Positions 3 through 63,190 of a stretch of DNA of 64,000 nt are shown here, piece after piece (position 1 is the stretch's first letter; every line of letters begins with the position of its first letter). The notes beneath the pieces were generated by a model. That model had not been told where the DNA came from. It did no database searches and saw only the letters and a list, made by a program, of their open reading frames with translations. The stretch lies in the IMG/VR virus record IMGVR_UViG_3300044858_001565, positions 16,517 to 80,516 of that record; one strand, given 5' to 3'. Made by a program: the position numbers and the translations under genes. The stretch is from a virus.

Positions 3-464
3 GGGAGCGCAGGCTCCCGCAAAATCAATGATGGACCATCCTCCGGTTGCACTTTGGGTGGCAGTCCACCCGCGTGTCCATTCAGGATTGAAGAAAATCC
101 ACGGTCCTCCGTAGATGTGGAATGTCTCGCTGTTACCGTTGCCCCAGTTTGAAGTTGTATGATTGGTGCTTTGGCGTTCCACCAAAAGACCAAGAGTCAC
201 GCCAGAGGTACGCCCGTATTCAATACGAAGAGCACCTGAGTTTGATCGTAGAGTCCCTGTGCTGTCCGTATATGAACCCAATGACATACGATCAATATTT
301 ACTTTGCTATAGTATGATCCCGTGGTGAAATCGTATTCCACGAACCGTCCTTGGTTCATTGCGTCAAGGTATTCTGCACGGGGGCGGAATATACCATCGT
401 TGCCAACACGCTTGTCTACGCCGATGAATCCACGATTGAGAGAATTGTTCCTGTTTACTGCCAT
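3..464 (-). CDS. Virion/fibre-associated protein, truncated at window edge
   Basis: Not in ORF track. ATG at 464 gives an open frame to the edge: MAVNRNNSLNRGFIGVDKR...LRIEYGRTSGVTLGLLVERQSTN; the GLLxE..TN motif is typical of phage spike/fibre proteins. Confidence 0.6.
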   Translation of the reverse strand, partial: MAVNRNNSLNRGFIGVDKRVGNDGIFRPRAEYLDAMNQGRFVEYDFTTGSYYSKVNIDRMSLGSYTDSTGTLRSNSGALRIEYGRTSGVTLGLLVERQSTNHTTSNWGNGNSETFHIYGGPWIFFNPEWTRGWTATQSATGGWSIIDFAGACAP

Positions 465-471
465 AGTGTCC

Positions 472-3400
472 TCACATGAACCAGCCTCTGGCGTTGCTCT
501 TGGTTTCCAGAGCGACGGTTCCGCTTTCGTTTGGAAGGGTTATGGTCTTGTCGCTCCCTGATGGATTAGCCGTTAGTGTGGTGTAACGAATCGGAAAAGA
601 GGTTCCAGTGAATTCCAAAGCGACTGGTGTGTAATCTTCTCCATTAGCAGATTTTGTCCCGAGAACCAGATCAGAGCCATTGACAGTGACTGAACCGTCA
701 GCATTTCCAGTTCCAGCATTCAAAAGCAACTCTGCATAGGTGCCTAGTCCAATTCCTCCACTAGGATTAGACGAATACAGACCAATGTTTCCAGAAGCAT
801 AAACATTTAAAGGGCAATTTCCAGCAAAACCAGAGGTTGTTCCTGTGTATACATTAAAAATAGAGTTGTTCAACAGATTCAGCGGTCCCCCGCGAACGGT
901 GAGTGGAGCGCCGCTTGCAGAGCCAAGCGTGGTTCCGCGATCCACGATCAAGCCTCCAGCATTGTCTATGTTGGATGATACTCTGGTCTGCCGCAATCCG
1001 TATTCAAAAACCACTCCTTGTGGTGCGCCAAATGTGGTTCCTCCTCCGTTTACATACAGTCCACCACTATTGATGGTCTGCAAGCCATTGAATGTGTTCG
1101 CACCAAGCGATGCACCCGTGACCGCACCAGTGGCTCCGTTGAATGACAGGACACCACTATTCGTGATTGTAACCGTACCAGTATTTGCATTTACGCTGAT
1201 GCCAGTTCCCGCAACCGCTCGGGTGACACCAGCATTGGTGATGGTAACGGAACCAGTGGCACCTGAAACAGTTATGCCGTCACCGGCAACAGCAGCAGAG
1301 ACACCTTGAACTGAACCAGTGCGCCCGTTGAAAGCAGTGACTGTATCAGCAACTATTTCATTCTGAACGAAAGCAGTAGTAGCAATCTGTGTTGTATTGG
1401 TTCCAACAGCAGCAGTGGTTGATGCAGGAGTTCCGGTGAAGGTTGGAGATGCTAGCAGTGCATAACTGGCAGCAGCAACACCACCCAATTGAGAAGCATT
1501 GGTTGCACTTGTGGCATTTCCAGTCAATGGACCGCTAAAGCCCGTAGCCGATGTCTGTAGACCTGTGAAGGTGTTTGCTGATCCTAGTTGTGCCCACCCA
1601 CTGGCAGCGGTATTTCCTAGAGCAGACGAATTGGAAGCAGTTCCCGTCAACGAAGCAGTAATAGTACCAGCAGAGAAGTTTCCGCTGGCATCACGGAATA
1701 CTATTGTGGAAGCAGTGTTTGCATTGGTTGCGTTTGATGTAACAGTGAATGTAGCGGCACTGGATTGATTGGCAGTAAATGTCTGAGTACCAGAAATTCC
1801 GTTGCCGCTGGTGTTCATCGTCAGGGTTCCATTGTTCACCGTTGGAACAGTCGCATTTATTGTGACTGCACCCGTTCCGCCTGTGGGGGAGATGGTGACA
1901 TTGGAACCAGCGACGATTGAACCCACACCTGATATAGCACCAGTGCTGCCGTTGAATGACTGCACACCATTATTTGTTACTGTTACAGCACCTGTGCTTG
2001 CATTGACTCCAATACCAGTTCCTGCTGCAAGACTGGTGACACCGCTATTGGTTATGGTAACCGTACCAGTGTTTGCGTTTACACTGATGCCAGTGCCAGC
2101 AACCGCTCGGGTGACACCAGCATTGGTGATGGTTACAGAACCAGTGGCACCTGATACGGTTATGCCGTCACCAGCAACGGCAGCAGAAACACCCTGTACC
2201 GCACCCGTGCGACCGTTGAATGAGGTTACGGTGTCGGCAATAATCTCGTTCTGAACAAATGCGGTGGTAGCAATCTGTGTGGTATTGGTGCCAACGGCGG
2301 CAGTGGTTGATGCAGGAGTCCCCGTAAAGGTTGGGGATGCTAGCAATGCATAGTTGGCAGCAGCAACACCACCCAATTGGGTGGAATTGGTTGCGGTGGT
2401 GGCAGTGGTTGCGTTTCCAGTCAACGGACCACTAAAACCTGTAGCCGATGTCTGTAGACCAGTGAATGTATTTGCTGCCGCGAGTTGTGCCCATCCACTA
2501 GCAGCAGTATTTCCCAAAGCAGACGCATTTGATGCGGTTCCAGTCAGTGCAGCAGTAATAGTTCCTGCGGAGAAGTTGCCACTGGCATTGCGGAACACAA
2601 TGGTGGAAGCGGTGTTTGCATCAGTGGCATTGGATGCCACTGTGAATGTAGCGGCACTGGATTGATTTGCGGTGAATGTTTGAGTACCAGAAATCCCGTT
2701 GCCACTGGTGTTCATCGTCAGGGTTCCATTGTTCACCGTTGGAACCGTTGCGTTGATGGTAACAGCACCCGTGCCACCTGTGGGTGAGATGGTGACATTT
2801 GAACCAGCGACGATTGAGCCTACGCCAGTGATTGCACCAGTGCTGCCGTTGAAAGACTGAACTCCATTGTTGGTGACAGTAACAGCACCAGTGCTTGCAT
2901 TTACGCCGACGCCGGTTCCTGCTGCAAGACTAGTGACACCGCTATTGGTTATGGTAACCGTACCAGTATTTGCGTTTACACTGATGCCCGTGCCAGCAAC
3001 GGCTCGGGTGACACCAGCATTGGTGATGGTTACAGAACCAGTGGCACCTGATACGGTTATGCCGTCACCTGCCACTGCTGCCGATACACCTTGTACCGAA
3101 CCAGTGCGTCCATTGAACGCGGTTACGGTGTCGGCAACAATCTCGTTCTGAACGAAAGCAGTGGTGGCAATCTGTGTGGTGTTGGTTCCAACAGCAGCGG
3201 TGGTTGATGCAGGAGTTCCCGTAAAGGTTGGTGATGCAAGGAGTGCCCAAGAAGCGGCGGCTGTTCCACCCAATTGGGTGGAATTGGTTGCGGTGGCTGC
3301 GTTACCTGTGATGCTGATGCCCCAAGTGCCGCTAGCGCCTCCGCCAGTGGTTCCTGCCTTGTTCGCAAGAGAATTGGTTATGGTTGTGGAGAAGTTTGCG

Positions 3401-5745
3401 TCGTTTCCTAGAGCAGCAGCCAGTTCATTCAGTGTGTCTAGTGCAGCGGGCGCAGCATTCACCAAATTTGTAATTTCAGTTCTAACAAATTGAGTGGTGG
3501 CAACCTGTGTGGTATTGGTTCCTGATGTGGCAGTAGGTGCTGTGGGTGTTCCTGTGAGGCTTGGAGACACCAAAGTAATTCCAGCAGCAGCAGAAATGCC
3601 GCCAGTAAAGGTTTGCAGAGCAGTGAATGTATTCGCTGTTCCTGTTCCGACTGCACCGATTTCACCAAGAGTCCATGAAACATCTGCGCTGCCGTTCACT
3701 GACTTTCCAGTGGAACCAATGGTTATGGTTCTGCTCGTTCCCCAGTTCGCTGTGGTAATGTCGGCGGAACCATTGAAAGCGGTTCCGTTGATGTTTCTAG
3801 CGGTCTGTAGGGTGGTTGCAGTGGTGGCATTTCCTGTTACAGCACCTGTAATAGGACCACTGAATCCAGTTGCTGATGTCTGTAGACCCGTGAAGGTGTT
3901 TGCACCTAGAGATGCACCCGTGACCGCACCGGCGTTCCCGTTGAACGACAGGACACCAGTATTTGAAATGGTCACAGAACCAGTTGCAGCCGATACTGAA
4001 ATTCCACTGCCTGCCACTGCTGCCGATACACCTTGTACAGAACCAGTGCGACCATTGAAAGCGGTCACTGTGTCAGCAACAATTTCATTCTGAACGAAAG
4101 CAGTAGTTGCTATTTGTGTGGTATTGGTTCCAACAGCAGCAGTGGTTGATGCAGGAGTCCCCGTAAAGGTTGGTGATGCTAGCAGTGCGTAACTAGCAGC
4201 AGCAACCCCACCCAATTGTGTGGAATTGGTTGCGGTTGTGGCATTTCCTGTGAGAGGACCACTGAAACCCGTAGCCGATGTTTGTAGACCTGTAAATGTA
4301 TTCGCGCCAAGAGATGCACCCGTCACTGCACCAGTGGCTCCGTTGAAGGACTGAACACCTATGTTCGTGACGGTCACGGCACCAGTTCCCGCACTGACGG
4401 CAACACCCGTTCCTGCGGCAAGACTTGTGACACCACTGTTTGTGATAGTAACTGTACCAGTGTTAGCCGAAACGGAAATTCCTGTGCCAGCAACCGCTCG
4501 GGTGACACCCGCATTTGTAATAGTTACTGCGCCAGTAGCACCAGAAACGCTTATGCCGTCGCCTGCTACCGCTGCTGATACTCCCTGAACTGAACCAGTT
4601 CTACCATTGAACGAGGTGACCGTATCCGCAACAATTTCGTTTTGAACAAATGCAGTAGTGGCAATCTGTGTGGTGTTGGTTCCAACGGCGGCAGTGGTTG
4701 ATGCAGGGGTTCCCGTGAAAGTGGGAGATGCCAGTAGTGCGTAACTGGCGGCGGCAACGCCTCCCAACTGAGTTGAGTTGGTTGCTGTAGTGGCAGTGGT
4801 TGCGTTTCCAGTAAGAGGACCGCTGAAACCAGTAGCCGATGTCTGTAGACCTGTGAATGTATTTGCACCAAGGGATGCGCCTGTGACTGCACCTGTTCTT
4901 CCATTGAAAGATGTAACTATGCCATCAGATACTATTGCAGTTTTTAGATTTGTAAACGAAATGAATCCACTGGTCAGTCCAGGATCTGATCCACACGCTC
5001 CTTGAAAGCCATTGAGATTAAATTGTGGAAGTGCTGAAGTTGCATCTCCAGCACCAAATCCTGTTGGTGGTCCTTCTGTGTTTATTTCCGTGTACAATGC
5101 AACCTTCAGGGCAGGAAGGTTTGCAAGGTACATTGAATTGGGCGTTCCGCTCTGTTGAAATGCAATCCAGTCTTCCGGACCTATCTTTTTCGACGGCATC
5201 GTTGAGCCACCGAACAGGTAATTTAGATTGATGTGAAATGTGTTTCCCGCCGGAGACATGGGGAATGTTATTCCAAGACCGGCAGACAATCCAACTGTGC
5301 CGGTTTTTCCGTTTACAGATGAAACAAGAGTGGTAATTCGTGTTCCGTTTAGGGTGATTCCTGAAGTAGAGATGCCGAGTGGAGTATTAACATATGCATT
5401 TCCAAATTGCACATAAGGACTTGTCAGAGCATCAATAGAGTCAACTCCAATGTTTGCGTAGAAAAACGCACTAGTGTCAAATTGTGCTTGACCAGAAACG
5501 AGAATACTTTCATTGAAAGTTGCCGATTCATCGAAATACACAGGCTGAAGGAAGGCTGCTCTTCCGGTGAATGTGTTTCCAGCACCAAGACCAACCAACT
5601 CAAGGGTGTTAGCAGTGCTGCCAATGAACATTCGATTCTGAACAAGGTTGACAGCCAATTCACCTGTAGTAAGACCAGATGCTCCATCAAATGTGGGAAT
5701 TCCACCTGCTCCATTGGTGCTGTATTTGATCTTGATTTTTGCCAT
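472..5745 (-). CDS. Long tail fibre protein (1757 aa) with internal tandem modules
   Basis: G/T/A/S-rich; repeated ASPTFTGTP...TNTTQIATTAFV, VTSFNGRTG and APAALDTLNELAAALGND fibre motifs; N-terminal IKIKYS...GELAVN. Confidence 0.85.
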   Translation of the reverse strand: MAKIKIKYSTNGAGGIPTFDGASGLTTGELAVNLVQNRMFIGSTANTLELVGLGAGNTFTGRAAFLQPVYFDESATFNESILVSGQAQFDTSAFFYANIGVDSIDALTSPYVQFGNAYVNTPLGISTSGITLNGTRITTLVSSVNGKTGTVGLSAGLGITFPMSPAGNTFHINLNYLFGGSTMPSKKIGPEDWIAFQQSGTPNSMYLANLPALKVALYTEINTEGPPTGFGAGDATSALPQFNLNGFQGACGSDPGLTSGFISFTNLKTAIVSDGIVTSFNGRTGAVTGASLGANTFTGLQTSATGFSGPLTGNATTATTATNSTQLGGVAAASYALLASPTFTGTPASTTAAVGTNTTQIATTAFVQNEIVADTVTSFNGRTGSVQGVSAAVAGDGISVSGATGAVTITNAGVTRAVAGTGISVSANTGTVTITNSGVTSLAAGTGVAVSAGTGAVTVTNIGVQSFNGATGAVTGASLGANTFTGLQTSATGFSGPLTGNATTATNSTQLGGVAAASYALLASPTFTGTPASTTAAVGTNTTQIATTAFVQNEIVADTVTAFNGRTGSVQGVSAAVAGSGISVSAATGSVTISNTGVLSFNGNAGAVTGASLGANTFTGLQTSATGFSGPITGAVTGNATTATTLQTARNINGTAFNGSADITTANWGTSRTITIGSTGKSVNGSADVSWTLGEIGAVGTGTANTFTALQTFTGGISAAAGITLVSPSLTGTPTAPTATSGTNTTQVATTQFVRTEITNLVNAAPAALDTLNELAAALGNDANFSTTITNSLANKAGTTGGGASGTWGISITGNAATATNSTQLGGTAAASWALLASPTFTGTPASTTAAVGTNTTQIATTAFVQNEIVADTVTAFNGRTGSVQGVSAAVAGDGITVSGATGSVTITNAGVTRAVAGTGISVNANTGTVTITNSGVTSLAAGTGVGVNASTGAVTVTNNGVQSFNGSTGAITGVGSIVAGSNVTISPTGGTGAVTINATVPTVNNGTLTMNTSGNGISGTQTFTANQSSAATFTVASNATDANTASTIVFRNASGNFSAGTITAALTGTASNASALGNTAASGWAQLAAANTFTGLQTSATGFSGPLTGNATTATTATNSTQLGGVAAANYALLASPTFTGTPASTTAAVGTNTTQIATTAFVQNEIIADTVTSFNGRTGAVQGVSAAVAGDGITVSGATGSVTITNAGVTRAVAGTGISVNANTGTVTITNSGVTSLAAGTGIGVNASTGAVTVTNNGVQSFNGSTGAISGVGSIVAGSNVTISPTGGTGAVTINATVPTVNNGTLTMNTSGNGISGTQTFTANQSSAATFTVTSNATNANTASTIVFRDASGNFSAGTITASLTGTASNSSALGNTAASGWAQLGSANTFTGLQTSATGFSGPLTGNATSATNASQLGGVAAASYALLASPTFTGTPASTTAAVGTNTTQIATTAFVQNEIVADTVTAFNGRTGSVQGVSAAVAGDGITVSGATGSVTITNAGVTRAVAGTGISVNANTGTVTITNSGVLSFNGATGAVTGASLGANTFNGLQTINSGGLYVNGGGTTFGAPQGVVFEYGLRQTRVSSNIDNAGGLIVDRGTTLGSASGAPLTVRGGPLNLLNNSIFNVYTGTTSGFAGNCPLNVYASGNIGLYSSNPSGGIGLGTYAELLLNAGTGNADGSVTVNGSDLVLGTKSANGEDYTPVALEFTGTSFPIRYTTLTANPSGSDKTITLPNESGTVALETKSNARGWFM
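1080..4920 (-). repeat. Intragenic direct repeats: five copies of a fibre module, including an ~0.9 kb near-duplication
   Basis: NSTQLGGxAAAxYALLASPTFTGTPASTTAAVGTNTTQIATTAFVQNEIVADTVTxFNGRTG occurs 5 times; VGSIVAGSNVTISPTGGTGAVTINATVPTVNNGTLTMNTSGNG occurs twice. Confidence 0.9.
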
Positions 5746-8055: not shown

Positions 8056-9744
8056 TCAGGGTGCCGATGTTTCATCCGACCAAATCGTTCCATTGAATGC
8101 GACAACTAGGTTTTGATTGCCTCCATAAGCACTACCAAGAGTCATACTGTAAATAACATAACCATGAGCCACGCCTGATACATCATCAGCCTGAGCCAAT
8201 GATATTTGATTAAACGAGTCGTTTTCTTGAACAGAATTTCCAAATAGAGTTTCATTACCAGCGTCTATATTCACCACTCCTTTGATAGACTGGTTTTTAT
8301 CATTTAGGGTTAGACCTCGTGGAAGGGCTATGACAAATGTTGAGTATTGCGTTCCTGATGCCATATTAAAGGTTGATCCAGCAACCCCCGCTGCAATCGC
8401 GGTACCAGAAGTTGGTCCCAAGAACGAATTTGGAAGACTTCTTACAGCGGCAGAGGTGGTTGGAACGCTTGCTGTTGGTCCATAGAAAATTCTCTTTCGG
8501 AACGACACATATGTGTTTGTTCCGTCTGCAAGCATCTGTATACCGTTTCCAGTGTTTGCAGTCAGACCTTCTTTTGCGAAGAATCGGAACATCATTGAGG
8601 TAAGACCAGCAGCAGGATTTACGGGATTGTTCACCGTAAATGTTGTTCCTGTTGATCCCACATTTGGAGTAACCAAAACAAAGTTTACTCCGTTTTCAGT
8701 ATGAGTAGTGCTGTACCAGTTTGTGCCGTTGTTTGGCGAGTACTGCATTCCCACTTCTGCAATATTGTGGTATGTAGTACTCATGTTGGGTCCAACAGCA
8801 ATGGTCACATTTACACTTGTGCCTGTGTTTCCGCGTTCTCTCCGTCTTCCAATTTCTCCTATATGGACACCCGTGAGGGTGGTTGTCCCCGTAACTCCAG
8901 TTGCACTTACTGTTGCGGTGGGATTAGCGAATGTCTGTGGCTGTATTGTGGTGTAGGTAAGTGTAAATCCAGTTGGCTGACCAGAATTGTCCTTGACTGT
9001 ATATCTGTAGTGGTATGGAGTGGTTATCCACTGCGTGATGTTTGCCGTATGGGTTGCACTTGCGGTGTATCCTCCTCCATTTACGCTCGGAAACTCTGCA
9101 AATGGAGCGGATGTATCGTGGAATGGAGATCCGCTGATGGAAGTTGTTGACCACCCACCAGGATTGGCAATAGCGGCGGCAAGACTGGCGGCTTGTTGCC
9201 ATTCAAGTGTTGATCCATTAGCAGTATATCCTGGAGTGAGCAAGTTATAACTAAAAGTCAATCCGAGAGAGACATTTCCCTGAACTCCATACAAAATTGT
9301 GTTTGCCTGTGTATGCGAAGTGAGATGTATTCTCATGGTAATATACTCTACCAACGCGTCCAAAATTACTTCAATTGGACTCTTTCCCGCTGATAGTATT
9401 GTTTCTCCTGTCCTAAATCTTCCAAAACTTTTATTATCACTCAGGTTTAGTGTCACATTGGATGTGAAAAGAGTGGCACCAGCAATGGCAGCAGCAAGAT
9501 CGTATATGCCTTTGACGGTGCTGAGAGTTGCAGCGGCAGTAATGCCTGTGGGACCGCCCTGAATGTTCAGCAGATTTCCGTTTGTGATGCCTGCTCCGAC
9601 CCATACAGAGCCGCCATCTGCATTTCCAATGTACACTCTGTTTGCAAAAGTGCCACCAGTCTGACCCATGAAAGCAAATTCACCAAAGGTCAATCCGCTT
9701 GGGACTGTAGTGGTTGTGGTGCGCTTGATCCTAATAATTGCCAT
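8056..9744 (-). CDS. Virion structural/fibre-associated protein
   Basis: N-terminal MAIIRIKRT...LTFGEFA...VYIG attachment-type domain; T/G-rich. Confidence 0.65.
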   Translation of the reverse strand: MAIIRIKRTTTTTVPSGLTFGEFAFMGQTGGTFANRVYIGNADGGSVWVGAGITNGNLLNIQGGPTGITAAATLSTVKGIYDLAAAIAGATLFTSNVTLNLSDNKSFGRFRTGETILSAGKSPIEVILDALVEYITMRIHLTSHTQANTILYGVQGNVSLGLTFSYNLLTPGYTANGSTLEWQQAASLAAAIANPGGWSTTSISGSPFHDTSAPFAEFPSVNGGGYTASATHTANITQWITTPYHYRYTVKDNSGQPTGFTLTYTTIQPQTFANPTATVSATGVTGTTTLTGVHIGEIGRRRERGNTGTSVNVTIAVGPNMSTTYHNIAEVGMQYSPNNGTNWYSTTHTENGVNFVLVTPNVGSTGTTFTVNNPVNPAAGLTSMMFRFFAKEGLTANTGNGIQMLADGTNTYVSFRKRIFYGPTASVPTTSAAVRSLPNSFLGPTSGTAIAAGVAGSTFNMASGTQYSTFVIALPRGLTLNDKNQSIKGVVNIDAGNETLFGNSVQENDSFNQISLAQADDVSGVAHGYVIYSMTLGSAYGGNQNLVVAFNGTIWSDETSAP

Positions 9745-9746: not shown

Positions 9747-10196
9747 TTAGAACTCTCCTCCGTCAAGGGATACATCCGTTATTGGTTCCACAGTACCGTC
9801 TAGTGTGAATCCACTGAAGCCTGTCTTGGAAACAATCACACCATCCACGAGCAGTTTTCCTGTGATATTTATATCACCAACCACTCCCAGAGTGCTTGAG
9901 AGAGTCACCCCCGAAGGGCTTCCGCTAAAGGTGTTTCCATTAACATTGAAATATTGAGCAGTGAGGGTGTCTGTTACAGTCACATTGTCGGGCAACCCTA
10001 TGGTGTAGGTGTTGCCGCTGGCTGTGATCTCTATTTCATTTTCCGTTCCAACCAGTGCAGCACCACCCGATGCACCGCTTGCACCTATTACAGTAAAGGT
10101 GTACGACTCCCACCCCTCGCCGTTCCACCGCCAGGTCTTGCCGTAGGCAGTGTAGAGTTGATTGGAAACCGGTGAGTTGGGAAAGTTCAGGGGCAT
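9747..10196 (-). CDS. Small fibre-associated protein
   Basis: MPLNFPNSP...KTWRWNGEGW motif; GTENEIEITASG..TIGLPDNVTV; ends LDGGEF. Confidence 0.65.
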   Translation of the reverse strand: MPLNFPNSPVSNQLYTAYGKTWRWNGEGWESYTFTVIGASGASGGAALVGTENEIEITASGNTYTIGLPDNVTVTDTLTAQYFNVNGNTFSGSPSGVTLSSTLGVVGDINITGKLLVDGVIVSKTGFSGFTLDGTVEPITDVSLDGGEF

Positions 10197-32832: not shown

Positions 32833-32855
32833 TACGATTCTCCTGTTTATTTCAA

Positions 32856-33443: not shown

Positions 33444-33462
33444 TTGTATATCCTCCAAGAGG

Positions 33463-34395: not shown

Positions 34396-34422
34396 GTAAA
34401 CCTCTACTCTAAATGACGATAA

Positions 34423-36682: not shown

Positions 36683-36696
36683 ATGAAACTCTCTTT

Positions 36697-39092: not shown

Positions 39093-39777
39093 AGAACATC
39101 TTCTCCATGTCAAATTTATTGGCTGCACGACGCTTGAAGGTTTCACCGTCGATTCCGTACATTTCCTTATTTTCATTCCGTGCATGGAGCGTATCCCACG
39201 GTTCTCCGCTCCACTGATGCTGAATGATGCACAGATCACACCGCCGCAACTTGCCCAACGCCATGCACACCTGCGTCTGCTCATTGTCGCAGTACAGGGA
39301 CTTGTATTCAGGATTGTAAATGTATCCAAACCGCTTGTATAAGGGGAATCCCATGACCGTGAGGGTCATCAGGGGGTCTTCCTTTGGACGCAATCCGTCC
39401 CAGAACTTGATGGCACCATCGTAATCGGGAAAAGCCTGTGCGTACACCTGACTGATGATCTCGTCGTATCCCATGTGGACTGGCACCATATCGTCCGATG
39501 CCAGCATCAGAACATCGCCGTCCACTCCCTCTAGATTGGCGTTGCAAGCCTCAATCTTCGTCTTGGAGTGCCCGTAAAAGCACTCTATTTGGGCACAGCG
39601 GGCACGGGTGGCAATCCACTGCTGCATGGCATCGTTGTTCATGGTTGCGTCATCCTCGTCCATAGTGAGGATGAACCGCACATCATGCCGACCACTGAGG
39701 AATGTCAGGTATCGGGTGAATACGGCTTTGAACTTGTCCGGACGATTACGGGTGGGGAACTTTATCACTAGTCTCAT
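39073..39777 (-). CDS. GT2-like glycosyltransferase
   Basis: IKFPTRNRP, KIEACN, LASDDMVP, YKSLYCDNE, IQHQW. Confidence 0.8.
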   Translation of the reverse strand: MRLVIKFPTRNRPDKFKAVFTRYLTFLSGRHDVRFILTMDEDDATMNNDAMQQWIATRARCAQIECFYGHSKTKIEACNANLEGVDGDVLMLASDDMVPVHMGYDEIISQVYAQAFPDYDGAIKFWDGLRPKEDPLMTLTVMGFPLYKRFGYIYNPEYKSLYCDNEQTQVCMALGKLRRCDLCIIQHQWSGEPWDTLHARNENKEMYGIDGETFKRRAANKFDMEKMFYAGTSK

Positions 39778-39792
39778 TATGAATCTCCATTT

Positions 39793-51829: not shown

Positions 51830-53263
51830 TTACGATGCAACGCCGTGGAGGTTGTCCACACGGAAGATGCGGTAGTAGACATTGCTGCGAGCAGTTAGTG
51901 CTCCAAGTCCCTGAGATGCGCCCTCAGCGAATGGGTTGGCGACCATGCCGTAGCGGGTCTTGAACGCCATCTTGGGCTGGAAGGTGCTGGTATCAACAGC
52001 ACGCATCATCTGTAGTGGGACATACGGGCAGTAGAAGATACCTGCATCGTATGGGCTGCTGCCCTTATATCCAACGCAAACAAAGTTTGTTGGAGCAGCG
52101 GTGCTGATGTAAGGATCAATGTAAACCTTGATCTTACCGTTGAGTGTTCCAGCAAAGGTGTTGCCGGTGTCATCAACATCAAGGCTGACATTCAGAGCGG
52201 GGCTGATGTTGAGGAAGCCACCCATAGCGAGGGCGCTAGCAACATCTGCCGAGCAGATGATGAAGTTGCCCTTGCCACGACGGGTTTCCTTGGCGATGAC
52301 ATTGCACTCACGCTCAATCTGGAACATCAGACCACGGAACTTCTCCGCGCTCCAACGACCATCCGAGTCCTGAATGAGGTCGTATACGCCACCGATAGCC
52401 GATCCGCTCGAAAGACCACCAGCAACCGTCTTGTAGTAAAGATCGGTCTGCTGTGCGCCCAACTTGGCGCAACGGTAGACATTGCGGACTACCTCGCGGT
52501 TGATTTCAGCAAGAATCTCGGTGCTCAGGATGTTGCTGAGTTCAGTCTCAGCGTCAAGACCGTGAACAGCCTTGAGATCCTGTGCGAGTTCAATGCTGTA
52601 CGAAGCGGCAAGCATACGAGTAGCAGCCTGAACGCCGACGCGCTCAATGCTGAATGCCATCTCGTTTGGTGCTTCGCCTTCAGCGAAGTTGGTGCGTAGA
52701 CCAGAGCCTGTGGTTAGACCGCTGACGGTTACATCAGTGGTTCCGAAGAACGGATCAACGCCGGTCACTGGACCGAAACCAGCAGTATTGCCGAGTGCGG
52801 CACCACCTGCGGTTGCTCCAGAGAAACCAGTGCGAGTCGGATCAGACGAACCTGCAAACAGAGTGTTTGGCTCGTTGAACAGAGCCTCGCTTCCGCCCTG
52901 TGTAGCATAACGGCTACGCATTGCGAAGATCAGACCTGTCGGAGCCGACATAGCCTGAACGCCGCAAATGTCGTAAGCCATGAGGTTTGGCATGGAACGA
53001 CGAACCAACTGGATGAGAATTGGGTCGTAGCCACGGAGATTGCCGTTCTCTCCACCCGAAGCGAGAGGAGACATACCAGCGCCAAGAGCGTTGGTGGGCG
53101 AAGCCTCAGCGATCATCTGCTCGCGGATAGCCTTCTCCTGGTTCTCCAGAAGGGTAGCAACGGTGGCACGCTTGTGAGCGTCTGTGATCTTTGGGAGATC
53201 ACTGTGGTCTAGAACAGGCTTCCACTTGCGGATTGCCTGCTCGGTTAGAAACTTATTTTCCAT
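51830..53263 (-). CDS. gp23: Major capsid protein (gp23)
   Basis: LVRRSMPNLMAYDICGVQ, ELAQDLKAVHGLDAE, YCPYVPL, FKTRYG. Confidence 0.98.
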   Translation of the reverse strand: MENKFLTEQAIRKWKPVLDHSDLPKITDAHKRATVATLLENQEKAIREQMIAEASPTNALGAGMSPLASGGENGNLRGYDPILIQLVRRSMPNLMAYDICGVQAMSAPTGLIFAMRSRYATQGGSEALFNEPNTLFAGSSDPTRTGFSGATAGGAALGNTAGFGPVTGVDPFFGTTDVTVSGLTTGSGLRTNFAEGEAPNEMAFSIERVGVQAATRMLAASYSIELAQDLKAVHGLDAETELSNILSTEILAEINREVVRNVYRCAKLGAQQTDLYYKTVAGGLSSGSAIGGVYDLIQDSDGRWSAEKFRGLMFQIERECNVIAKETRRGKGNFIICSADVASALAMGGFLNISPALNVSLDVDDTGNTFAGTLNGKIKVYIDPYISTAAPTNFVCVGYKGSSPYDAGIFYCPYVPLQMMRAVDTSTFQPKMAFKTRYGMVANPFAEGASQGLGALTARSNVYYRIFRVDNLHGVAS

Positions 53264-58021: not shown

Positions 58022-58041
58022 CTTGGATTACTCCTTGGTCT

Positions 58042-58048: not shown

Positions 58049-58051
58049 ACT

Positions 58052-60049
58052 TCAAGCCCCGACTTCGCTGAACTGAACGCCCGTCTTTGTAGCAACAAAG
58101 TTCAACTGGATGAAGTTGATGCTGCGAGTGGGCTTCACGAAGATGTCTGCAACGAACTCGTTGCGGTCAATGACCTCTCCGGTGTTGTTGGTTTCGTCGC
58201 ACACCACCTTGAAGTCGGTGATGCCACGGCGCTGCTGAACGGTCTTGAGGAAGGGAACCACGAGGTTCTTGAACTGTGCGCGAGTGAACGAATCGTTCTG
58301 CTCGAACAGGAAGAACTTTGAAGCCGTGGCAATTGCCTTCTCAAGCACGATGAACAGGCGACGCACATTGATGCGGTCAAAGGCACTTGGACGGGTCTGT
58401 GCGGTCTTGTCACCGAACAGGATCACGCCCTCGCCGGGGAACGACACGACAGGGTTGATCTGTCGGGTGTACAGTTCGTCGCGGTGAGCCTCGGACGATG
58501 GGTTGTACGCCAACTTCACCACATTCTTGATCTGCCCACGGTTGTAGCCTGCGGGAGAGAACCAAGCCTCGTTGGTAAATTCGGTGCGTGCAACCAGTCC
58601 TGCAATGTCTCCGTTCAGCGGAAGCAGACGGACCACATTGTTGTAGGTGTCCAACTGGTACTTCCATCCACTGTCAATGACTGCGTAGGACGAGTTGAGG
58701 TTGAGAGTGGTGTCGCGGAAGGTCTTGAGACTGTTCAAGGCTTCAAACGGCAACTTGTTCTCAACATCAGCCTGTGCAGGCGAAATGAATGCCATGCAGT
58801 CTAGACGCTTCTCGCAGACATTCTGCACAACCAACTGCTCAACGGTTGCGGAAGCAGCGCCGAGCGGAAGCAGCGAAACATCCACTGCATCGGCATCGGC
58901 AAACTTGCTCCAACCGCTTGCCCACCGCTCCGAATCGCTTGGTGCAGCCGAAGCAGCGCCAGCCATGTGAAGCGAGTTTACATTGTCAGCAAGGAATGTT
59001 CCTGCTGCAATCGGGGCACCAATACGAACCCAATCGGTTTTGGATGCGATTCCGCCTGTGTTGTCGTTGACATCAGCAGAGAGTGCCCAGACATAGTTGG
59101 ACTGATCGTTGATAACCGTGCGGTAATAGTTGCTGCTGCCGTCAAACTTCTTTGCATCAGTGGCACGGGAAAGCCCTTCAAACTTCTCAAGAAGAGAGTT
59201 TGCCGTTCCGGTCCACAGACCGTCCTTGTCCATGACAAGCACATTGATCTGATCTCCCGAACCACCTGCGTCAGCCGCAAAGGGAGTGGTGTAGGAGTTC
59301 GATCCGATGTATTTTGCGTATACGCTCTTGTGGGTGAATGCCGCACCGTTGTCCTGTGCCTTTGGCAGAAGACCGTTGATGTTCAGCGTGATTCCTGTAG
59401 CGGAACCAGACACAAGGAACACATCTCCGCTTGTGGCTCCCCGTCCAGAAACACCACTTACTGTAACGGTGGTTCCGTCAGCAAAGATGATGTCATCGCC
59501 AACAGAGAAAGCAGCAGTTGTACCGGCTGCCTTTGTGATTCGGATGCTGGACGCACCAAGAGCAGCCTGGGCGACTAGAGTTCCAGTTGTGGTTCCAGGT
59601 CCACTCGTAACAACAACCTTCAGGCTGTTTCCTAGGGCACCAGGATACTTTGATCCAAAAACCACACCCGCAACAGCAGCGGTTGATGTTGGAAGCCCTG
59701 CGCTTGCTCCAAACTGTGTTTCGTTATTGATGACCAGAGTGGCTACTCCGGTCAGACCAGCCTTGGTTACGCTGGCGTTCTTTGCCGCAGCGCCGACCAC
59801 ACGAACAACCTGGCAGTTGTTGCCATACGACAGGAAGTTGCCTGCGGTAAAGAAGTCCAGGTAGTTGTTGTTGTCGGGCTTGCCAAAAATATTGGCAAGT
59901 TCGGTCTGCTGGGTAACGGTGACGATTTCGTCAACCGGACCCCAGTGGAAGTATCCTGCAAAACCACCAGGTGTGGTGGCAACGGCAGGGACAACGGTTG
60001 TCAGGTCAATTTCCTTGATGCTTACGCCGGGGCTTACTCTAAATGCCAT
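58052..60049 (-). CDS. gp18: Tail sheath protein (gp18)
   Basis: SPGVSIKEIDLT, WFSPAGYNRG, LFGDKT, FDRINVRRLF, KPTRSINFIQLNFVA. Confidence 0.97.
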   Translation of the reverse strand: MAFRVSPGVSIKEIDLTTVVPAVATTPGGFAGYFHWGPVDEIVTVTQQTELANIFGKPDNNNYLDFFTAGNFLSYGNNCQVVRVVGAAAKNASVTKAGLTGVATLVINNETQFGASAGLPTSTAAVAGVVFGSKYPGALGNSLKVVVTSGPGTTTGTLVAQAALGASSIRITKAAGTTAAFSVGDDIIFADGTTVTVSGVSGRGATSGDVFLVSGSATGITLNINGLLPKAQDNGAAFTHKSVYAKYIGSNSYTTPFAADAGGSGDQINVLVMDKDGLWTGTANSLLEKFEGLSRATDAKKFDGSSNYYRTVINDQSNYVWALSADVNDNTGGIASKTDWVRIGAPIAAGTFLADNVNSLHMAGAASAAPSDSERWASGWSKFADADAVDVSLLPLGAASATVEQLVVQNVCEKRLDCMAFISPAQADVENKLPFEALNSLKTFRDTTLNLNSSYAVIDSGWKYQLDTYNNVVRLLPLNGDIAGLVARTEFTNEAWFSPAGYNRGQIKNVVKLAYNPSSEAHRDELYTRQINPVVSFPGEGVILFGDKTAQTRPSAFDRINVRRLFIVLEKAIATASKFFLFEQNDSFTRAQFKNLVVPFLKTVQQRRGITDFKVVCDETNNTGEVIDRNEFVADIFVKPTRSINFIQLNFVATKTGVQFSEVGA

Positions 60050-61817: not shown

Positions 61818-62307
61818 CCTCTATAGTCTGCCGCACATCGGGGCGGTTGTCAAATGCCTTCGTGGAAGAACGAGCGGAATTGATGATGTCCTGTAGTTCC
61901 TTTGTGGAACCAACATAGATGGACTGATTGGTGGTGCTGTTGTTTGTAACGCTTTGATCCACCTTGCGAACAGTCTTCACCCGATTGTGAAGATCCATCA
62001 GTTCGCGGTTGGTTTCTGATAGCGTCTTAATCATCTGTGCCACCACTTCATAGGCTCGGGGCTGATCGCCCTCCTGTGCCACCTGAATCACACCGTCCAG
62101 TGCGTTCTTGCCCATGTTCACCAGTTCTTTCAGATTGTCACGCACGATCTGATAGTCGGTTTTCAGGTCATTTGCCAACTCGTCATCGGTGAGTGGACGA
62201 GGAGGAACAGAAACGACCACGGCGTTCTGCGGAATGCCGGTGTTGGTCAATGGCTTTGCTTCAGGCTCTGCTCCCAGAGCCTTTTCAATATGATCGAACT
62301 CACTCAT
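61798..62307 (-). CDS. gp16: Terminase small subunit (gp16)
   Basis: DYQIVRDNL, PRAYEV, IYVGSTKELQ. Confidence 0.92.
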   Translation of the reverse strand: MSEFDHIEKALGAEPEAKPLTNTGIPQNAVVVSVPPRPLTDDELANDLKTDYQIVRDNLKELVNMGKNALDGVIQVAQEGDQPRAYEVVAQMIKTLSETNRELMDLHNRVKTVRKVDQSVTNNSTTNQSIYVGSTKELQDIINSARSSTKAFDNRPDVRQTIEDDKTVE

Positions 62308-62317
62308 GCTCTACTCC

Positions 62318-63190
62318 TTAGATGTTCCAATCCACAGTCAGACCACCAGAATCCATTGCATTCTCATATGTGGTTCCACCTGCATCAAAATCGTTTTGAT
62401 AAATCTTGATATACGGTGTGTAGTTGTTGAGATTGGAATTGGCTCCTGATGGACCAGATATTCCAATAATGTCCGTTGCGTAGTTGGGAGTGTCGGTGGT
62501 GTTTCCTGGCAGGAAGGTGATTCCACCGGCAACAAAATCCTCGTCAAACACATTCCCGTTCCACATATTCGCTTGAACCACACGGATTTCCTTGTAGTTC
62601 TTCTTGTTGCCGAACAGATAGGTCTTCATCGTGAAGTTCAGGGTGAATATGATGGATCGCCGTGTCTGAAAGTCACCTTCATAGTCTTCTTCGGAAGAAA
62701 CCGAGTTTAGGTAGATGGGCACATCAACCTTTCGGTTTATGTCATCAAAATTCATGGTGACCACAAACTCTGGCGCAAAGAACGGCAGAATTTGCTCCAC
62801 TATCCGCAGCCCGTCTTCCATGTTTCGGACATACACATACAGTCCAAAGTCAATGTTGTACGGGACTTCGGCAAAGGTGTAGTCCACCCCGCTTGGAGCA
62901 CCAGTTGGTCTGACTATGTTGCGAATGGTGCTGTTACGCTTGCGAGTGGGATCATACACATATCCCGTGATCTCAAACGCCATGCGCGGCAGGGTGATTT
63001 GGTTGGGATTGTTCAGGTAAGGATCACCAGCCAACCGCACCTTGTATTTTTCCTTCGGAGCATACGCTATGGGAACAAGGAGGGTTTTCTTGCCGCCGCT
63101 TTCCTGCTTGTCGATGTAGATTTGGTTGAACAGTGAACCAAATGCCACCACCATTCGCCGTATGGAGCCGTTGTAGAAGTTGGTAAACAT
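62318..63190 (-). CDS. gp15: Tail sheath stabiliser/terminator (gp15)
   Basis: VAFGSLFN, VPIAYAPKEK, LPRMAFE, IVEQILPFF, DYEGDF..RR. Confidence 0.94.
   Translation of the reverse strand: MFTNFYNGSIRRMVVAFGSLFNQIYIDKQESGGKKTLLVPIAYAPKEKYKVRLAGDPYLNNPNQITLPRMAFEITGYVYDPTRKRNSTIRNIVRPTGAPSGVDYTFAEVPYNIDFGLYVYVRNMEDGLRIVEQILPFFAPEFVVTMNFDDINRKVDVPIYLNSVSSEEDYEGDFQTRRSIIFTLNFTMKTYLFGNKKNYKEIRVVQANMWNGNVFDEDFVAGGITFLPGNTTDTPNYATDIIGISGPSGANSNLNNYTPYIKIYQNDFDAGGTTYENAMDSGGLTVDWNI

What the first reader, a model, noticed from the sequence alone, without database searches (positions are those of the whole stretch)
3..63190. G-x-T tripeptide recurs in virion proteins: possible glycosylation sequon
Seen: G-x-T (GLT, GIT, GAT, GVT, GNT, GST, GTT) is dense in structural proteins of unrelated sequence. 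I count about 24 in the 562-aa protein at 8056-9744, and it also appears in 6009-8036, 10196-11437, 26627-26947 (GTT, GLT, GNT), 31077-31472 (GVTSGVT, GET) and the N-terminus of the DUF285 protein. It clusters in the variable segments of core proteins: gp23 (FSGATAGG, LGNTAG, FGTTD, SGLTTG), gp18 (AGLTG, PGTTT, AGTTA, RGATS, TGITL) and the gp15 tail (GGITF, PGNTT, GGTTY, GGLTV). It is rare in gp43, gp41 and gp46. Inference: a repeatedly selected surface motif, most simply the acceptor site of the phage's own glycosyltransferase; the GPT collagen would be a tandem array of it.
Basis: partly seen in the sequence, partly recalled or inferred. Interest (0 to 1): 0.88.

Follow-up and report, generated by a model that had tools for sequence, protein, structure and literature searches.

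The report
G-x-T excess in phage fibre proteins
Gly-any-Thr is about twice as common as chance predicts in many tail-fibre-type proteins of this uncultured T4-like phage and its relatives. These phages also carry a conserved protein-glycosylating enzyme, but evidence that the motif is its target site is mixed, and capsid and sheath lack the excess.

Summary
The counts are correct (24 G-x-T in 8056-9744; every quoted string is present). Most of the raw density is G/T-rich composition. After shuffling, gp23, gp18, the 1757-aa fibre and 6009-8036 show no excess.

A real excess, specific for Thr, spacing and direction, remains in 8056-9744 (24 vs 9.6), 10196-11449 (11 vs 3.6), the collagen protein's N-domain, the gp15 tail and fibre proteins upstream of the window. 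It replicates in 115 non-redundant proteins from 66 independent related loci (1136 vs 644, z 19). It is absent from T4 and three cyanophages (0.98-1.10).

Gene 31609-32865 is a GT2+TPR enzyme. Its nearest solved relatives are protein or peptide glycosyltransferases (GmaR, SunS). Its architecture and position upstream of a GPT collagen match C. difficile SgtA-BclA3. It forms a conserved cassette with a ~140-aa protein (31077-31472) that carries a near-invariant G-V-T.

The general sequon reading is only partly supported:
- About half the sites sit in columns conserved in homologues, and family-B orthologues in phages without the enzyme keep an excess.
- Phages without the enzyme or any GT2 hit still show a 1.4-2.8 fold excess.
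- Four enzyme-bearing phages show almost none.

Most likely the excess is an inherited fibre-domain signature, and the enzyme acts on the adjacent collagen or small protein.

The parts
8056..9744 (-). Family A: a 562-aa fibre-type virion protein with a conserved N-terminal anchor motif followed by Ig/FN3-like beta-sandwiches. This is the strongest non-collagen G-x-T excess.
   Evidence: 24 vs 9.6, z 5.3. Ranked 2nd of 400 pairs by z, 1st among pairs with expectation of at least 1. 40 metagenomic homologues give 681 vs 322 = 2.1 fold. No homologue in 50,697 isolated phages. Model and fold search.
10196..11449 (-). Family B (phrog_1645 virion structural protein): a concanavalin-A-like lectin/glucanase jelly roll, probably receptor-binding. 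G-x-T excess.
   Evidence: 11 vs 3.6, z 4.3, top pair. PHROG hit 6e-104. Fold hits to the TM4 gp23 receptor-binding domain and legume lectins. Orthologues: 2.22 fold in enzyme-bearing records (n=11) against 1.60 in cyanophage isolates without it (n=3).
31609..32865 (-). TPR-GT: an N-terminal GT2 (GT-A) catalytic domain plus C-terminal TPR repeats. A putative protein O-glycosyltransferase of the GmaR/SunS/SgtA type.
   Evidence: Pfam GT2 at 19-111 and TPR at 191-248. PDB profile hits: GmaR 5e-18, SunS 6e-16. Invariant I99-D100-A101-D102. At least 571 IMG/VR contigs encode a relative.
31077..31472 (-). A small 131-aa protein (phrog_1084; a BppU_N-like lead only), the conserved downstream partner of the TPR-GT. 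It carries a near-invariant G58-V-T60 and is a candidate acceptor or adaptor.
   Evidence: A homologue starts 20-175 bp after the TPR-GT in about 45 of 80 loci. G-x-T at column 58 in 90% of sequences. Domain G-x-T 268 vs 104 = 2.57. G58 and T60 each at least 90% conserved. Atlas lead to BppU_N.
29394..31049 (-). Collagen-like fibre protein. Its N-terminal domain is paralogous to 31077-31472. It has 100 G-X-Y triplets, 54 with Y=Thr (GPT 27, GNT 16, GET 7).
   Evidence: Pfam Collagen 3e-38. Triplet census and 63 G-x-T in total. N-domain 8 vs 2.1. 46% identity to the small protein.
11434..13209 (-). A second collagen-like protein of the charged type (GER/GDK; Thr at Y in only 4 of 54 triplets). 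Its C-terminal domain shows a mild G-x-T excess.
   Evidence: C-terminal 300-591: 8 vs 3.9. Charged-type collagens are the gene found just downstream of the cassette in 12 of 20 loci.
3..464 (-). The C-terminal part of a 505-aa fibre-cluster protein that starts upstream of the window. The whole protein has a G-x-T excess.
   Evidence: Genome coordinates 15463-16980: 14 vs 6.3, z 3.5.
62318..63190 (-). gp15 tail-sheath stabiliser with a lineage-specific C-terminal extension carrying 5 G-x-T.
   Evidence: phrog_227 covers residues 3-211. Segment 212-290: 5 vs 1.3, p 0.003, though the segment was chosen after the fact.
27163..29409 (-). DUF285 (BspA-type) protein, one of three paralogues. Marginal G-x-T excess, mainly in the N-terminal 215 aa.
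   Evidence: Pfam DUF285 2e-47. 10 vs 5.6 overall; N-terminus 5 vs 2.0. Paralogues.
472..5745 (-). A 1757-aa tail fibre that is G/T-rich and has no G-x-T excess. Negative case.
   Evidence: 45 vs 46.9. Tail-fibre PHROGs.
51830..53263 (-). gp23 major capsid protein. The quoted sites are clustered at residues 147-186 with no excess over local composition. Negative case.
   Evidence: 5 vs 3.5 overall; segment 4 vs 2.3, p 0.16. phrog_138.
58052..60049 (-). gp18 tail sheath. The quoted sites are at residues 97-222 with no significant excess. Negative case.
   Evidence: 7 vs 5.1 overall; segment 6 vs 3.1, p 0.056. phrog_23.
32856..39329 (-). A low-GC block of sugar-modification genes: FkbM-like and class-24 methyltransferases, a DXD glycosyltransferase, an NAD epimerase/dehydratase and two GT2-like genes. 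It could extend or modify a glycan. Most of these genes are private to this phage.
   Evidence: GC 0.40-0.42. Pfam hits. Homologues in only 1-11 of 80 TPR-GT loci, except GT2 38454-39329, which is 79-82% identical in G003 and G005.

Best explanation
Three things are superimposed.

(1) Composition. The high raw density of G-x-T in virion proteins is mainly because these proteins are rich in Gly and Thr. This fully accounts for gp23, gp18, the 1757-aa fibre and 6009-8036.

(2) A real protein-level excess. A subset of fibre and receptor-binding-type proteins carries G-x-T at 1.6-3 times expectation, with extended context [N/S]-G-[A/L/V/I]-T-[F/A/L/G]. These are families A and B, the phrog_1084 domain, C-terminal domains of collagen-like proteins and several upstream fibre proteins. 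I read this mainly as an inherited structural signature of these beta-rich fibre domains: a turn Gly followed by a strand whose alternate residues are hydrophobic, which would put Thr on the outer face. The signature would spread by descent and domain shuffling within a large uncultured T4-like lineage. That reading is inferred. It rests on column conservation, on persistence in phages that lack the enzyme, and on loop-to-strand placement in the models.

(3) The enzyme. The TPR-GT (31609-32865) is a real GmaR/SunS/SgtA-type protein glycosyltransferase. Its most likely substrates are the products of the genes directly downstream: the small phrog_1084 protein with its near-invariant G-V-T, and the collagen fibre that carries the same domain plus GPT/GNT/GET repeats. 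This is by analogy with SgtA-BclA3. The homology, the architecture and the conserved synteny are shown here. The transfer of sugar to Thr is inferred.
For: Composition:
- Shuffles remove the signal in gp23, gp18, 472-5745 and 6009-8036.

The excess is real:
- 24 vs 9.6 and 11 vs 3.6, top-ranked pair.
- Pooled in 4 genomes: 769 vs 472, z 13.7. Other spacings: GT 0.94, GxxT 0.93, TxG 0.86, GxS 1.10, GxV 1.27.
- Independent replication: 1136 vs 644, z 19.4.
- Codon-frame only: GGNNNNAC 210 vs 140 in frame 0, nothing in frames 1 and 2 or on the opposite strand.
- Controls: T4 1.01, S-RIM8 1.04, S-RIM2 1.10, S-SRM01 0.98.

Inherited and structural:
- 53% (A) and 61% (B) of G-x-T instances lie in columns occupied in at least half of homologues.
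- With conserved columns frozen, the family-wide excess falls to about 1.4-1.5 in A. In B the ratio stays about 2.1-2.3, but on under 2 expected sites per protein.
- Family-B orthologues in phages without the enzyme keep 1.3-1.8 fold.
- G029 (no PF00535 hit) 1.53, G034 1.41, G021 family-A-like protein 2.8 fold.
- T4 gp36 and gp37 are mildly enriched without any protein glycosylation system.
- Many sites sit at loop-to-strand junctions in the models.

Enzyme and substrate:
- Pfam GT2 plus TPR. PDB relatives GmaR, SunS and a ThuS-like protein. Invariant DxD.
- 48 collagen genes downstream against 2 upstream of the enzyme.
- The small-protein cassette is present in about 45 of 80 loci.
- Cultured phage Tunturi_5 has a homologue 3.7 kb from a tail fibre with 105 collagen triplets, 59% Y=Thr, and no non-collagen excess (1.15).
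- Thr-type collagen occurs in 5 of 5 enzyme-bearing records against 1 of 7 without; Fisher about 0.008 by hand, not corrected for phylogeny.
- SgtA precedent: PMC7157674.
Against: Against the structural reading:
- Shuffles that preserve secondary-structure class do not remove the excess: 24 vs 9.8 and 11 vs 3.6-4.4.
- The excess occurs in at least 14 of 27 sequence-unrelated clusters.
- It is far stronger for Thr than for Val or Ser.
- It is absent from the G/T-rich fibres of four enzyme-less phages. No known structural rule predicts such a lineage-specific G-x-T preference.
- The query's own clade has more sites than distant family members even after conserved columns are frozen (z 4.0).

Against the substrate assignment:
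- The collagen immediately downstream of the cassette is more often the charged type without Thr at Y (12 vs 8).
- G003, G005 and G018 keep the enzyme with no Thr-collagen on their (incomplete) contigs.
- G029 has Thr-collagens and no enzyme.
- No glycan has been observed on any of these proteins.
Confidence: 0.5

Rival explanations
1. Sequon hypothesis (the first reader's, narrowed to fibre proteins). G-x-T, in the context [N/S]-G-[aliphatic]-T-[F/A/L/G], is the acceptor motif of the phage TPR-GT. Selection for O-glycosylation of exposed Thr has raised its frequency in many unrelated fibre proteins of enzyme-bearing phages, and the GXT collagens are tandem arrays of it.
For: - The enzyme is homologous to protein glycosyltransferases. 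Its best functional analogue, SgtA, glycosylates Thr in G-P-T.
- The excess is protein-level and specific for Thr and spacing. It is the top pair in two independent pooled sets, z 13.7 and 19.4.
- It is found in at least 14 unrelated clusters.
- It is absent in T4, S-RIM8, S-RIM2 and S-SRM01, which lack the enzyme.
- The enzyme's conserved neighbour has a 90%-conserved G-V-T.
- G003, G005 and G018 keep the enzyme without a Thr-collagen on the contig and have the highest non-collagen excess, 1.57-1.92.
- Hydrophobic residues at x and +3 suggest that the Thr faces outwards.
- Family-B orthologues are higher with the enzyme: 2.22 vs 1.60.
Against: - Enzyme-bearing G016 (1.05), G041 (1.03), G025 (1.22), G022 (1.25) and the Tunturi_5 fibre cluster (1.15) lack the excess.
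- G029 (83% complete), G034 and G021 (100% complete), with no enzyme and no PF00535 hit, carry a 1.4-2.8 fold excess in homologous or fibre proteins.
- About half of the sites are in conserved columns, and family-B orthologues in cyanophages without the enzyme keep 5-8 sites.
- Whole-record comparison with vs without the enzyme: 1.43 vs 1.21, MWU p 0.11, confounded by phylogeny.
- The exposed capsid and sheath are not enriched.
- G-x-S is not enriched although SgtA accepts Ser in vitro.
- Pro, the natural x of SgtA sites, is disfavoured at x outside collagen (0.5).
Confidence: 0.25
2. Pure composition or chance. G-x-T is common only because the virion proteins are rich in Gly and Thr, and the reader picked the motif after seeing it.
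For: This is true for gp23, gp18, 472-5745 and 6009-8036.
Against: - Global, local and secondary-structure-preserving shuffles leave a 2.5-3 fold excess in two proteins.
- It is the top of 400 pairs.
- Neighbouring spacings and the reverse order are at or below expectation.
Confidence: 0.02
3. A nucleotide-level cause. A DNA motif (GGNNNNAC, for example a methylation or restriction-related site) or a GC-content-driven shift in amino-acid usage produces the apparent peptide motif.
For: The phage encodes a DNA methyltransferase and nucleases. Among 15 whole records, GC content correlated with the excess (rho 0.75).
Against: - GGNNNNAC is enriched only in the codon frame: 210 vs 140. Frames 1 and 2 give 16 and 15 vs 16, and the opposite strand 74 vs 69. 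There is no codon bias at the sites.
- 27 enzyme-bearing loci with GC 0.30-0.39 still show a median of about 1.8 fold, with no GC correlation (rho -0.16).
Confidence: 0.02
4. A cryptic periodic repeat. The sites are remnants of collagen-like G-X-T triplets or of a beta-helix repeat unit shared by the fibre proteins.
For: Some doubled sites (GxTGxT) occur in 8056-9744. Fibre proteins share shuffled modules, giving one giant similarity component of 170 proteins.
Against: - Distance-3 pairs are not over-represented (19 vs 21) and no period stands out.
- Runs of 5 or more G-X-Y triplets were masked in all pooled tests.
- The models of A and B are globular beta-sandwiches and jelly rolls, not solenoids.
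Confidence: 0.05

Closest known systems
Clostridioides difficile SgtA - BclA3 (spore exosporium collagen-like glycoprotein and its O-GlcNAc transferase)
   Same: The enzyme has an N-terminal GT-A domain plus a C-terminal TPR domain. Its gene lies immediately upstream of a collagen-like protein rich in G-P-T triplets, and the acceptor is Thr at the Y position (PMC7157674). The window has GT2+TPR 560 bp upstream of a collagen with GPT 27, GNT 16 and GET 7.
   Different: - This is a phage virion context, not a spore.
- A small phrog_1084 protein lies between the enzyme and the collagen, and it is the more conserved neighbour.
- Direct sequence similarity to SgtA could not be tested because no SgtA sequence was available through the tools.
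- No biochemical evidence exists here.
- In many related loci the adjacent collagen is a charged type without Thr.
Listeria monocytogenes GmaR (flagellin O-GlcNAc transferase; function from my own knowledge of Shen et al. 2006) and the glycocin S-/O-glycosyltransferases SunS/ThuS
   Same: These are the best solved sequence relatives of the catalytic domain: GmaR 5e-18, SunS 6e-16, a ThuS-like protein 5e-14. All are GT2 enzymes that glycosylate proteins or peptides and carry helical-repeat C-terminal domains. SunS is prophage-encoded and sits next to its substrate gene.
   Different: - The NCBIfam SunS equivalog score is 35.7 bits against a cut-off of 350, so this is not a SunS orthologue.
- The substrates differ: flagellin, or a small bacteriocin Cys or Ser.
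- No glycocin-like peptide gene is present.
Bacillus anthracis BclA (GPT-repeat collagen-like exosporium glycoprotein; from my own knowledge and the titles)
   Same: A collagen-like filament with Thr-rich G-X-Y repeats that are O-glycosylated, next to sugar-biosynthesis genes.
   Different: No C1q-like C-terminal domain was tested here. The N-terminal anchor is a phage BppU_N-like domain, which is a lead only.
Virion glycosylation in mycobacteriophages (phage-encoded glycosyltransferases modifying capsid and tail-tube proteins; from my own knowledge. PMC11256854 mentions the inference for phage Maravista)
   Same: A phage-encoded glycosyltransferase proposed to modify the phage's own virion proteins.
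   Different: There the targets are the major capsid and tail-tube subunits. Here capsid and sheath show no motif excess, and the candidates are fibre proteins. The enzyme family and the host phylum also differ.
Defined bacterial glycosylation sequons (N-x-S/T for N-linked; D-[S/T]-[A/I/L/V/M/T] for Bacteroidota O-linked; from my own knowledge)
   Same: A short, spacing-specific motif ending in or containing a hydroxyl residue, with a hydrophobic residue after it.
   Different: No G-x-T sequon has been described to my knowledge. Here Ser is not enriched, and the motif persists in phages that lack the candidate enzyme.

Membership tests
GT2-TPR protein glycosyltransferases (SgtA / GmaR / SunS type) | N-terminal GT-A (GT2) catalytic domain | tested here: met
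   Pfam PF00535 3e-10 over residues 19-111. A profile of 8 homologues hits GmaR at 5e-18 and SunS at 6e-16 over about 150-220 residues.
GT2-TPR protein glycosyltransferases (SgtA / GmaR / SunS type) | Metal-binding DxD motif intact | tested here: met
   I99-D100-A101-D102 is invariant in 8 and in 28 aligned homologues.
GT2-TPR protein glycosyltransferases (SgtA / GmaR / SunS type) | C-terminal TPR or helical-repeat domain | tested here: met
   TPR_17, TPR_14 and ANAPC3 at residues 191-248. Matches to designed TPR proteins over profile positions 176-303.
GT2-TPR protein glycosyltransferases (SgtA / GmaR / SunS type) | Encoded next to its protein substrate | tested here: inconclusive
   Adjacency is shown. 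The small phrog_1084 protein starts 20-175 bp downstream in about 45 of 80 loci. Collagen genes lie 48 downstream against 2 upstream.
GT2-TPR protein glycosyltransferases (SgtA / GmaR / SunS type) | Transfers a sugar to Thr, Ser or Cys of a protein | not testable with these tools
   This needs enzymology or mass spectrometry.
SunS-family peptide S-glycosyltransferase (NCBIfam TIGR04195 equivalog) | Score above the curated equivalog cut-off | tested here: not met
   35.7 bits against a cut-off of 350. Related catalytic domain, but not an orthologue.
Bacterial/phage collagen-like triple-helix proteins of the BclA (Thr-rich) type | Long uninterrupted G-X-Y runs | tested here: met
   Pfam Collagen 3e-38. 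7 runs totalling 100 triplets.
Bacterial/phage collagen-like triple-helix proteins of the BclA (Thr-rich) type | Thr predominant at the Y position | tested here: met
   Y=Thr in 54 of 100 triplets: GPT 27, GNT 16, GET 7. The second collagen, 11434-13209, does not meet this (4 of 54).
Bacterial/phage collagen-like triple-helix proteins of the BclA (Thr-rich) type | O-glycosylated Thr in the repeats | not testable with these tools
   No proteomic data are available.
Protein glycosylation sequon (G-x-T as acceptor motif) | Over-represented relative to composition in the target proteins, specific for spacing and residue | tested here: met
   Met for a subset of fibre-type proteins. Not met for gp23, gp18 and two large fibres.
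Protein glycosylation sequon (G-x-T as acceptor motif) | Excess co-occurs with the enzyme across genomes and is absent without it | tested here: not met
   - Exceptions with the enzyme and little excess: G016, G041, G025, G022, Tunturi_5.
- Exceptions without the enzyme that keep an excess: G029, G034, G021, and family B in S-RIM8 and S-SRM01.
- Four clean negatives do fit: T4, S-RIM8, S-RIM2 and S-SRM01 overall.
-.
Protein glycosylation sequon (G-x-T as acceptor motif) | Acceptor residues are solvent-exposed on the assembled protein | not testable with these tools
   Structure prediction returns no coordinates. There are only indirect hints: hydrophobic residues at x and +3, and loop-to-strand placement.
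Protein glycosylation sequon (G-x-T as acceptor motif) | Glycan detected at the motif | not testable with these tools
   This needs site-specific glycoproteomics.

The most novel reading that the evidence does not exclude
A large uncultured lineage of T4-like phages (at least 571 contigs) uses a GmaR/SgtA-like GT2-TPR enzyme to O-glycosylate Thr in a G-x-T motif on its own tail-fibre proteins. The targets would be collagen-like fibres, the BppU_N-like adaptor and several receptor-binding domains. Selection for this glycan coat would have measurably reshaped fibre sequences, making this the first sequence-defined O-glycosylation sequon in a phage virion.
Probability: 0.25. Interest if true: 0.85.

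Novelty: new variant of a known kind. Interest (0 to 1): 0.58.

Why it matters
Self-glycosylation of phage virions is known from very few systems, and no sequence rule for it exists.

This work separates a real, replicated sequence signal from a composition artefact. G-x-T is about 1.8 times expectation in fibre-type proteins of a widespread uncultured T4-like lineage.

It also identifies a conserved two-gene cassette: a GmaR/SunS/SgtA-type protein glycosyltransferase plus a ~140-aa virion-protein domain with a near-invariant G-V-T, often fused or adjacent to collagen-like fibres. That gives a concrete enzyme-substrate pair to test. It also gives a cultured phage to test it in: Tunturiibacter phage Tunturi_5, with gp35 beside the GPT/GAT collagen fibre gp29.

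If the fibres are glycosylated, that bears on host recognition, on shielding from proteases or grazers, and on how receptor-binding proteins evolve. If they are not, the G-x-T signature is an unexplained structural rule for a large class of phage fibre domains.

Tried and rejected
- Local compositional heterogeneity: shuffles in 20-aa blocks give the same excess.
- Secondary-structure class, 3-state and a finer pre-strand/strand-start scheme: does not explain it.
- Paralogy between the two best cases: no similarity between A and B. Paralogy elsewhere in the fibre cluster is real and was handled by clustering.
- DNA-level motif: rejected, the signal is in the codon frame only.
- GC content as driver: looked good on 15 whole records (rho 0.75), then rejected by 27 low-GC enzyme-bearing loci.
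- Periodic repeat or collagen remnants: no preferred spacing.
- Simple association of the enzyme with the excess: not significant and has exceptions both ways.
- Family A in cultured phages: none found, so no annotated relative is available.
- The rest of the sugar island as a conserved partner of the enzyme: rejected, it is mostly private to this phage.
- Profile search of the small protein against the PDB: only a marginal hit, E 0.034.
- Substitution spectrum at variable sites: Thr is replaced mostly by Ser, then by Val, Gln, Ile and Cys in family A, or by Asn and Gln in family B. That is the ordinary pattern and does not discriminate between the hypotheses.
- Burial of the Thr residues: could not be computed, because no coordinates are available.

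Full report
**What the window is.** All long ORFs lie on the minus strand. They follow the core gene order of T4-like myoviruses: gp14, gp15, gp16, gp17, gp18, gp19, gp20, gp21, gp22, gp23, gp3, UvsY, UvsW, gp55, gp47, gp46, gp45, gp44, then gp43, UvsX, gp41 and gp61. gp23 is only about 55% identical to those of Synechococcus myoviruses, and no near relative exists among isolated phages. The record is an 80.5-kb contig, and the window is its last 64 kb. At the low-coordinate end lies a long cluster of fibre-type genes. At 31.6-39.3 kb lies a low-GC block of sugar-modification genes, followed by a collagen-like gene and a DUF285 gene.

**Checking the observation.** Whether they exceed chance depends on the protein. 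With composition-preserving shuffles, global and in 20-residue blocks, G-x-T is at expectation in four proteins:
- gp23: 5 vs 3.5
- gp18: 7 vs 5.1
- the 1757-aa fibre: 45 vs 46.9
- 6009-8036: 16 vs 14

It is also at expectation in the pooled core T4 structural set (20 vs 15.3) and in non-structural proteins (37 vs 31.5). The rarity in gp43, gp41 and gp46 reflects low Gly and Thr content.

A real excess remains in:
- 8056-9744: 24 vs 9.6, z 5.3
- 10196-11449: 11 vs 3.6, z 4.3
- the non-collagen N-domain of the collagen protein: 8 vs 2.1
- the gp15 C-terminal extension: 5 vs 1.3
- three fibre proteins just upstream of the window: 21 vs 10.9, 16 vs 7.6 and 14 vs 6.3

In the first two proteins G-x-T is the top-ranked pair among the a-x-b pairs with a meaningful expectation, while GT, GxxT and TxG are at expectation. 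The collagen 29394-31049 is a trivial case, since 54 of its 100 G-X-Y triplets have Thr at Y.

**How robust and how specific the signal is.** I pooled G/T-rich proteins with collagen runs masked from this phage and three related contigs. That gives G-x-T 769 vs 472 (ratio 1.63, z 13.7). Other patterns are GT 0.94, GxxT 0.93, TxG 0.86, GxS 1.10 and GxV 1.27. The extended context is [N/S]-G-[A/L/V/I]-T-[F/A/L/G].

The signal is at the protein level. GGNNNNAC is enriched only in the codon frame (210 vs 140), not in the other frames or on the opposite strand, and there is no codon bias at the sites. There is no preferred spacing between sites.

A replication set was drawn without reference to the motif: 115 non-redundant G/T-rich proteins from 66 IMG/VR loci, selected only for encoding a TPR-GT 63% identical or less to this one. 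It gives 1136 vs 644 (ratio 1.76, z 19.4), again the top pair and again specific for spacing and Thr.

Controls are flat: T4 virion proteins about 1.0, with only gp36 and gp37 mildly enriched; S-RIM8 1.04 and S-RIM2 1.10; S-SRM01 0.98.

**What the two best cases are.** The two proteins are unrelated in sequence.
- Family A (8056-9744) has only metagenomic relatives and none in 50,697 isolated phages. Its model shows a low-confidence N-terminal anchor followed by Ig/FN3-like sandwiches.
- Family B (10196-11449, phrog_1645) is a concanavalin-A-like jelly roll. Its best structural match is a mycobacteriophage receptor-binding domain.

The excess is a family trait: 2.1 fold over 40 family-A homologues and 2.05 fold over 120 family-B homologues. 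In family A 53% of instances, and in family B 61%, lie in columns occupied in at least half of the sequences. With conserved columns frozen, the residual family-wide excess is about 1.4-1.5 in A. In B it stays about 2.1-2.3, but on under 2 expected sites per protein. This phage's own clade keeps more sites than distant members (z 4.0 and 3.7 for the two query proteins). Many sites lie at loop-to-strand junctions. However, shuffles that preserve secondary-structure class do not remove the excess.

**The enzyme.** Gene 31609-32865 encodes a GT2 domain followed by TPR repeats. A profile of its family hits, among solved structures, GmaR (5e-18), SunS (6e-16) and a ThuS-like enzyme (5e-14), ahead of polysaccharide synthases. 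From established knowledge, these are protein or peptide glycosyltransferases. The DxD motif is invariant. The protein is not a SunS orthologue (35.7 vs 350 bits).

The closest functional precedent found is C. difficile SgtA. It has a GT-A domain plus a TPR domain, is encoded immediately upstream of bclA3, and adds beta-O-GlcNAc to Thr of GPT collagen repeats (PMC7157674). The family is rare in isolates (8 records, none a cyanophage). It is abundant in IMG/VR, with at least 571 contigs, and it is as conserved as the core genes in near relatives, at 76-83%.

**Synteny.**
- Within 10 kb of the enzyme, collagen-like genes lie 48 times downstream and twice upstream. In 20 of 57 loci one starts within 1 kb (8 Thr-type, 12 charged-type).
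- The other sugar-island genes are mostly private to this phage.
- The most constant neighbour is a 135-155-aa protein (window 31077-31472, phrog_1084). It starts 20-175 bp after the enzyme in about 45 of 80 loci. It has G-x-T at one column in 90% of sequences and an overall excess of 2.57 fold.
- In this phage the same domain also forms the N-terminus of the Thr-collagen. A language-model lead points to BppU_N, a baseplate adaptor domain.
- In the cultured jumbo phage Tunturi_5, a homologue of the enzyme lies 3.7 kb from a tail fibre with 105 collagen triplets, 59% with Thr at Y. The surrounding fibre proteins show no non-collagen excess (1.15).
- Thr-type collagen is present in 5 of 5 enzyme-bearing records against 1 of 7 without.

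**Testing the sequon idea.** In its favour:
- The enzyme is of the right kind.
- The signal is Thr-specific.
- It is found in at least 14 of 27 unrelated clusters.
- It is absent in four phages without the enzyme.
- It is highest in relatives that keep the enzyme and have no Thr-collagen on the contig.

Against it:
- Four enzyme-bearing records show 1.03-1.25, and Tunturi_5 shows 1.15.
- G029 (83% complete, no PF00535 hit) shows 1.53. The provirus G034 shows 1.41. The complete G021 has a family-A-like protein at 2.8 fold.
- Family-B orthologues in isolates without the enzyme keep 1.3-1.8 fold, against 2.2 with the enzyme.
- The whole-record comparison is not significant (1.43 vs 1.21, p 0.11).

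GC content looked like a confounder on whole records but was excluded. The second criterion, burial of the sites, could not be tested.

**Verdict.** It is an artefact of composition for capsid, sheath and two large fibres. It is real, replicated and lineage-wide for a subset of fibre-type proteins.

A protein glycosyltransferase with an SgtA-like relation to a GPT collagen is there, and it forms a conserved cassette with a G-V-T-bearing small protein. A general G-x-T sequon is not established, and several comparisons speak against it.

My estimates:
- about 0.5 that the non-collagen excess is mainly an inherited structural signature of these fibre domains, with the enzyme acting on its neighbours
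- about 0.25 that a substantial share of the non-collagen sites are real acceptor sites

Noticed in passing
window 31077-32865 and loci L117-L196: There is a conserved two-gene cassette of TPR-GT plus a ~140-aa phrog_1084 protein. At least 571 IMG/VR contigs encode a TPR-GT relative, and the small protein follows it in about 45 of the 80 loci fetched. The small protein has invariant D7, G83, G84, Y104 and G120, and near-invariant G58 and T60.
   Followed up: partly
window 472-5745 and genome region upstream of the window: F-x-G is the most over-represented i/i+2 pair in the structural set (83 vs 39, z 7.3), and GxxT is high in the 1757-aa fibre (65 vs about 47). Internal repeats of about 150-230 aa at 76-86% identity are shared with a 647-aa upstream fibre protein.
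   Followed up: partly
window 8056-9744: Family A has no detectable relative in 50,697 isolated phage genomes. Its conserved N-terminal ~58 residues (the MAIIRIKR...GLTFGE type) recur at the start of many otherwise unrelated fibre proteins in IMG/VR contigs. It looks like a shared virion-attachment module.
   Followed up: partly
family A alignment (window 8056-9744 and P0001-P0040): At G-x-T columns where Gly is kept, Thr is replaced by Cys 14 times, about 40 times background, probably in one clade. This is curious because SunS/ThuS-type relatives of the enzyme are S-glycosyltransferases acting on Cys.
   Followed up: no
window 26627-26983, plus two copies upstream of the window (genome 5685-6008 and 14780-15103): Three paralogous ~107-aa proteins (56-61% identical) each sit at the distal end of a fibre or DUF285 module. 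They may be fibre-assembly or tip-associated proteins.
   Followed up: no
window 27163-29409 and genome 6297-9700: There are three paralogous DUF285 (BspA-like leucine-rich repeat) proteins in one phage contig. None has a homologue in the 80 TPR-GT loci.
   Followed up: no
loci L163, L194 and record G039: Some IMG/VR homologues of the TPR-GT contain one or two in-frame stop codons. These may be pseudogenes, sequencing errors or recoding.
   Followed up: no
pooled fibre proteins of the lineage: The dipeptide T-G is over-represented (1.28-1.35 fold) while G-T is slightly under-represented (0.92-0.94). This is a second directional Gly/Thr bias, left unexplained.
   Followed up: no
window 32000-40000: GC drops to 0.40-0.42 against about 0.49 elsewhere. 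The genes in this block are mostly absent from relatives that share the flanking TPR-GT and GT2 38454-39329. This is consistent with an exchangeable glycan-tailoring cassette.
   Followed up: partly
record G016 (IMG/VR, 210 kb): This phage has seven collagen-like genes with Thr at Y in 75-94% of triplets, three of them within 6 kb of its 624-aa TPR-GT homologue. It has no non-collagen G-x-T excess.
   Followed up: partly
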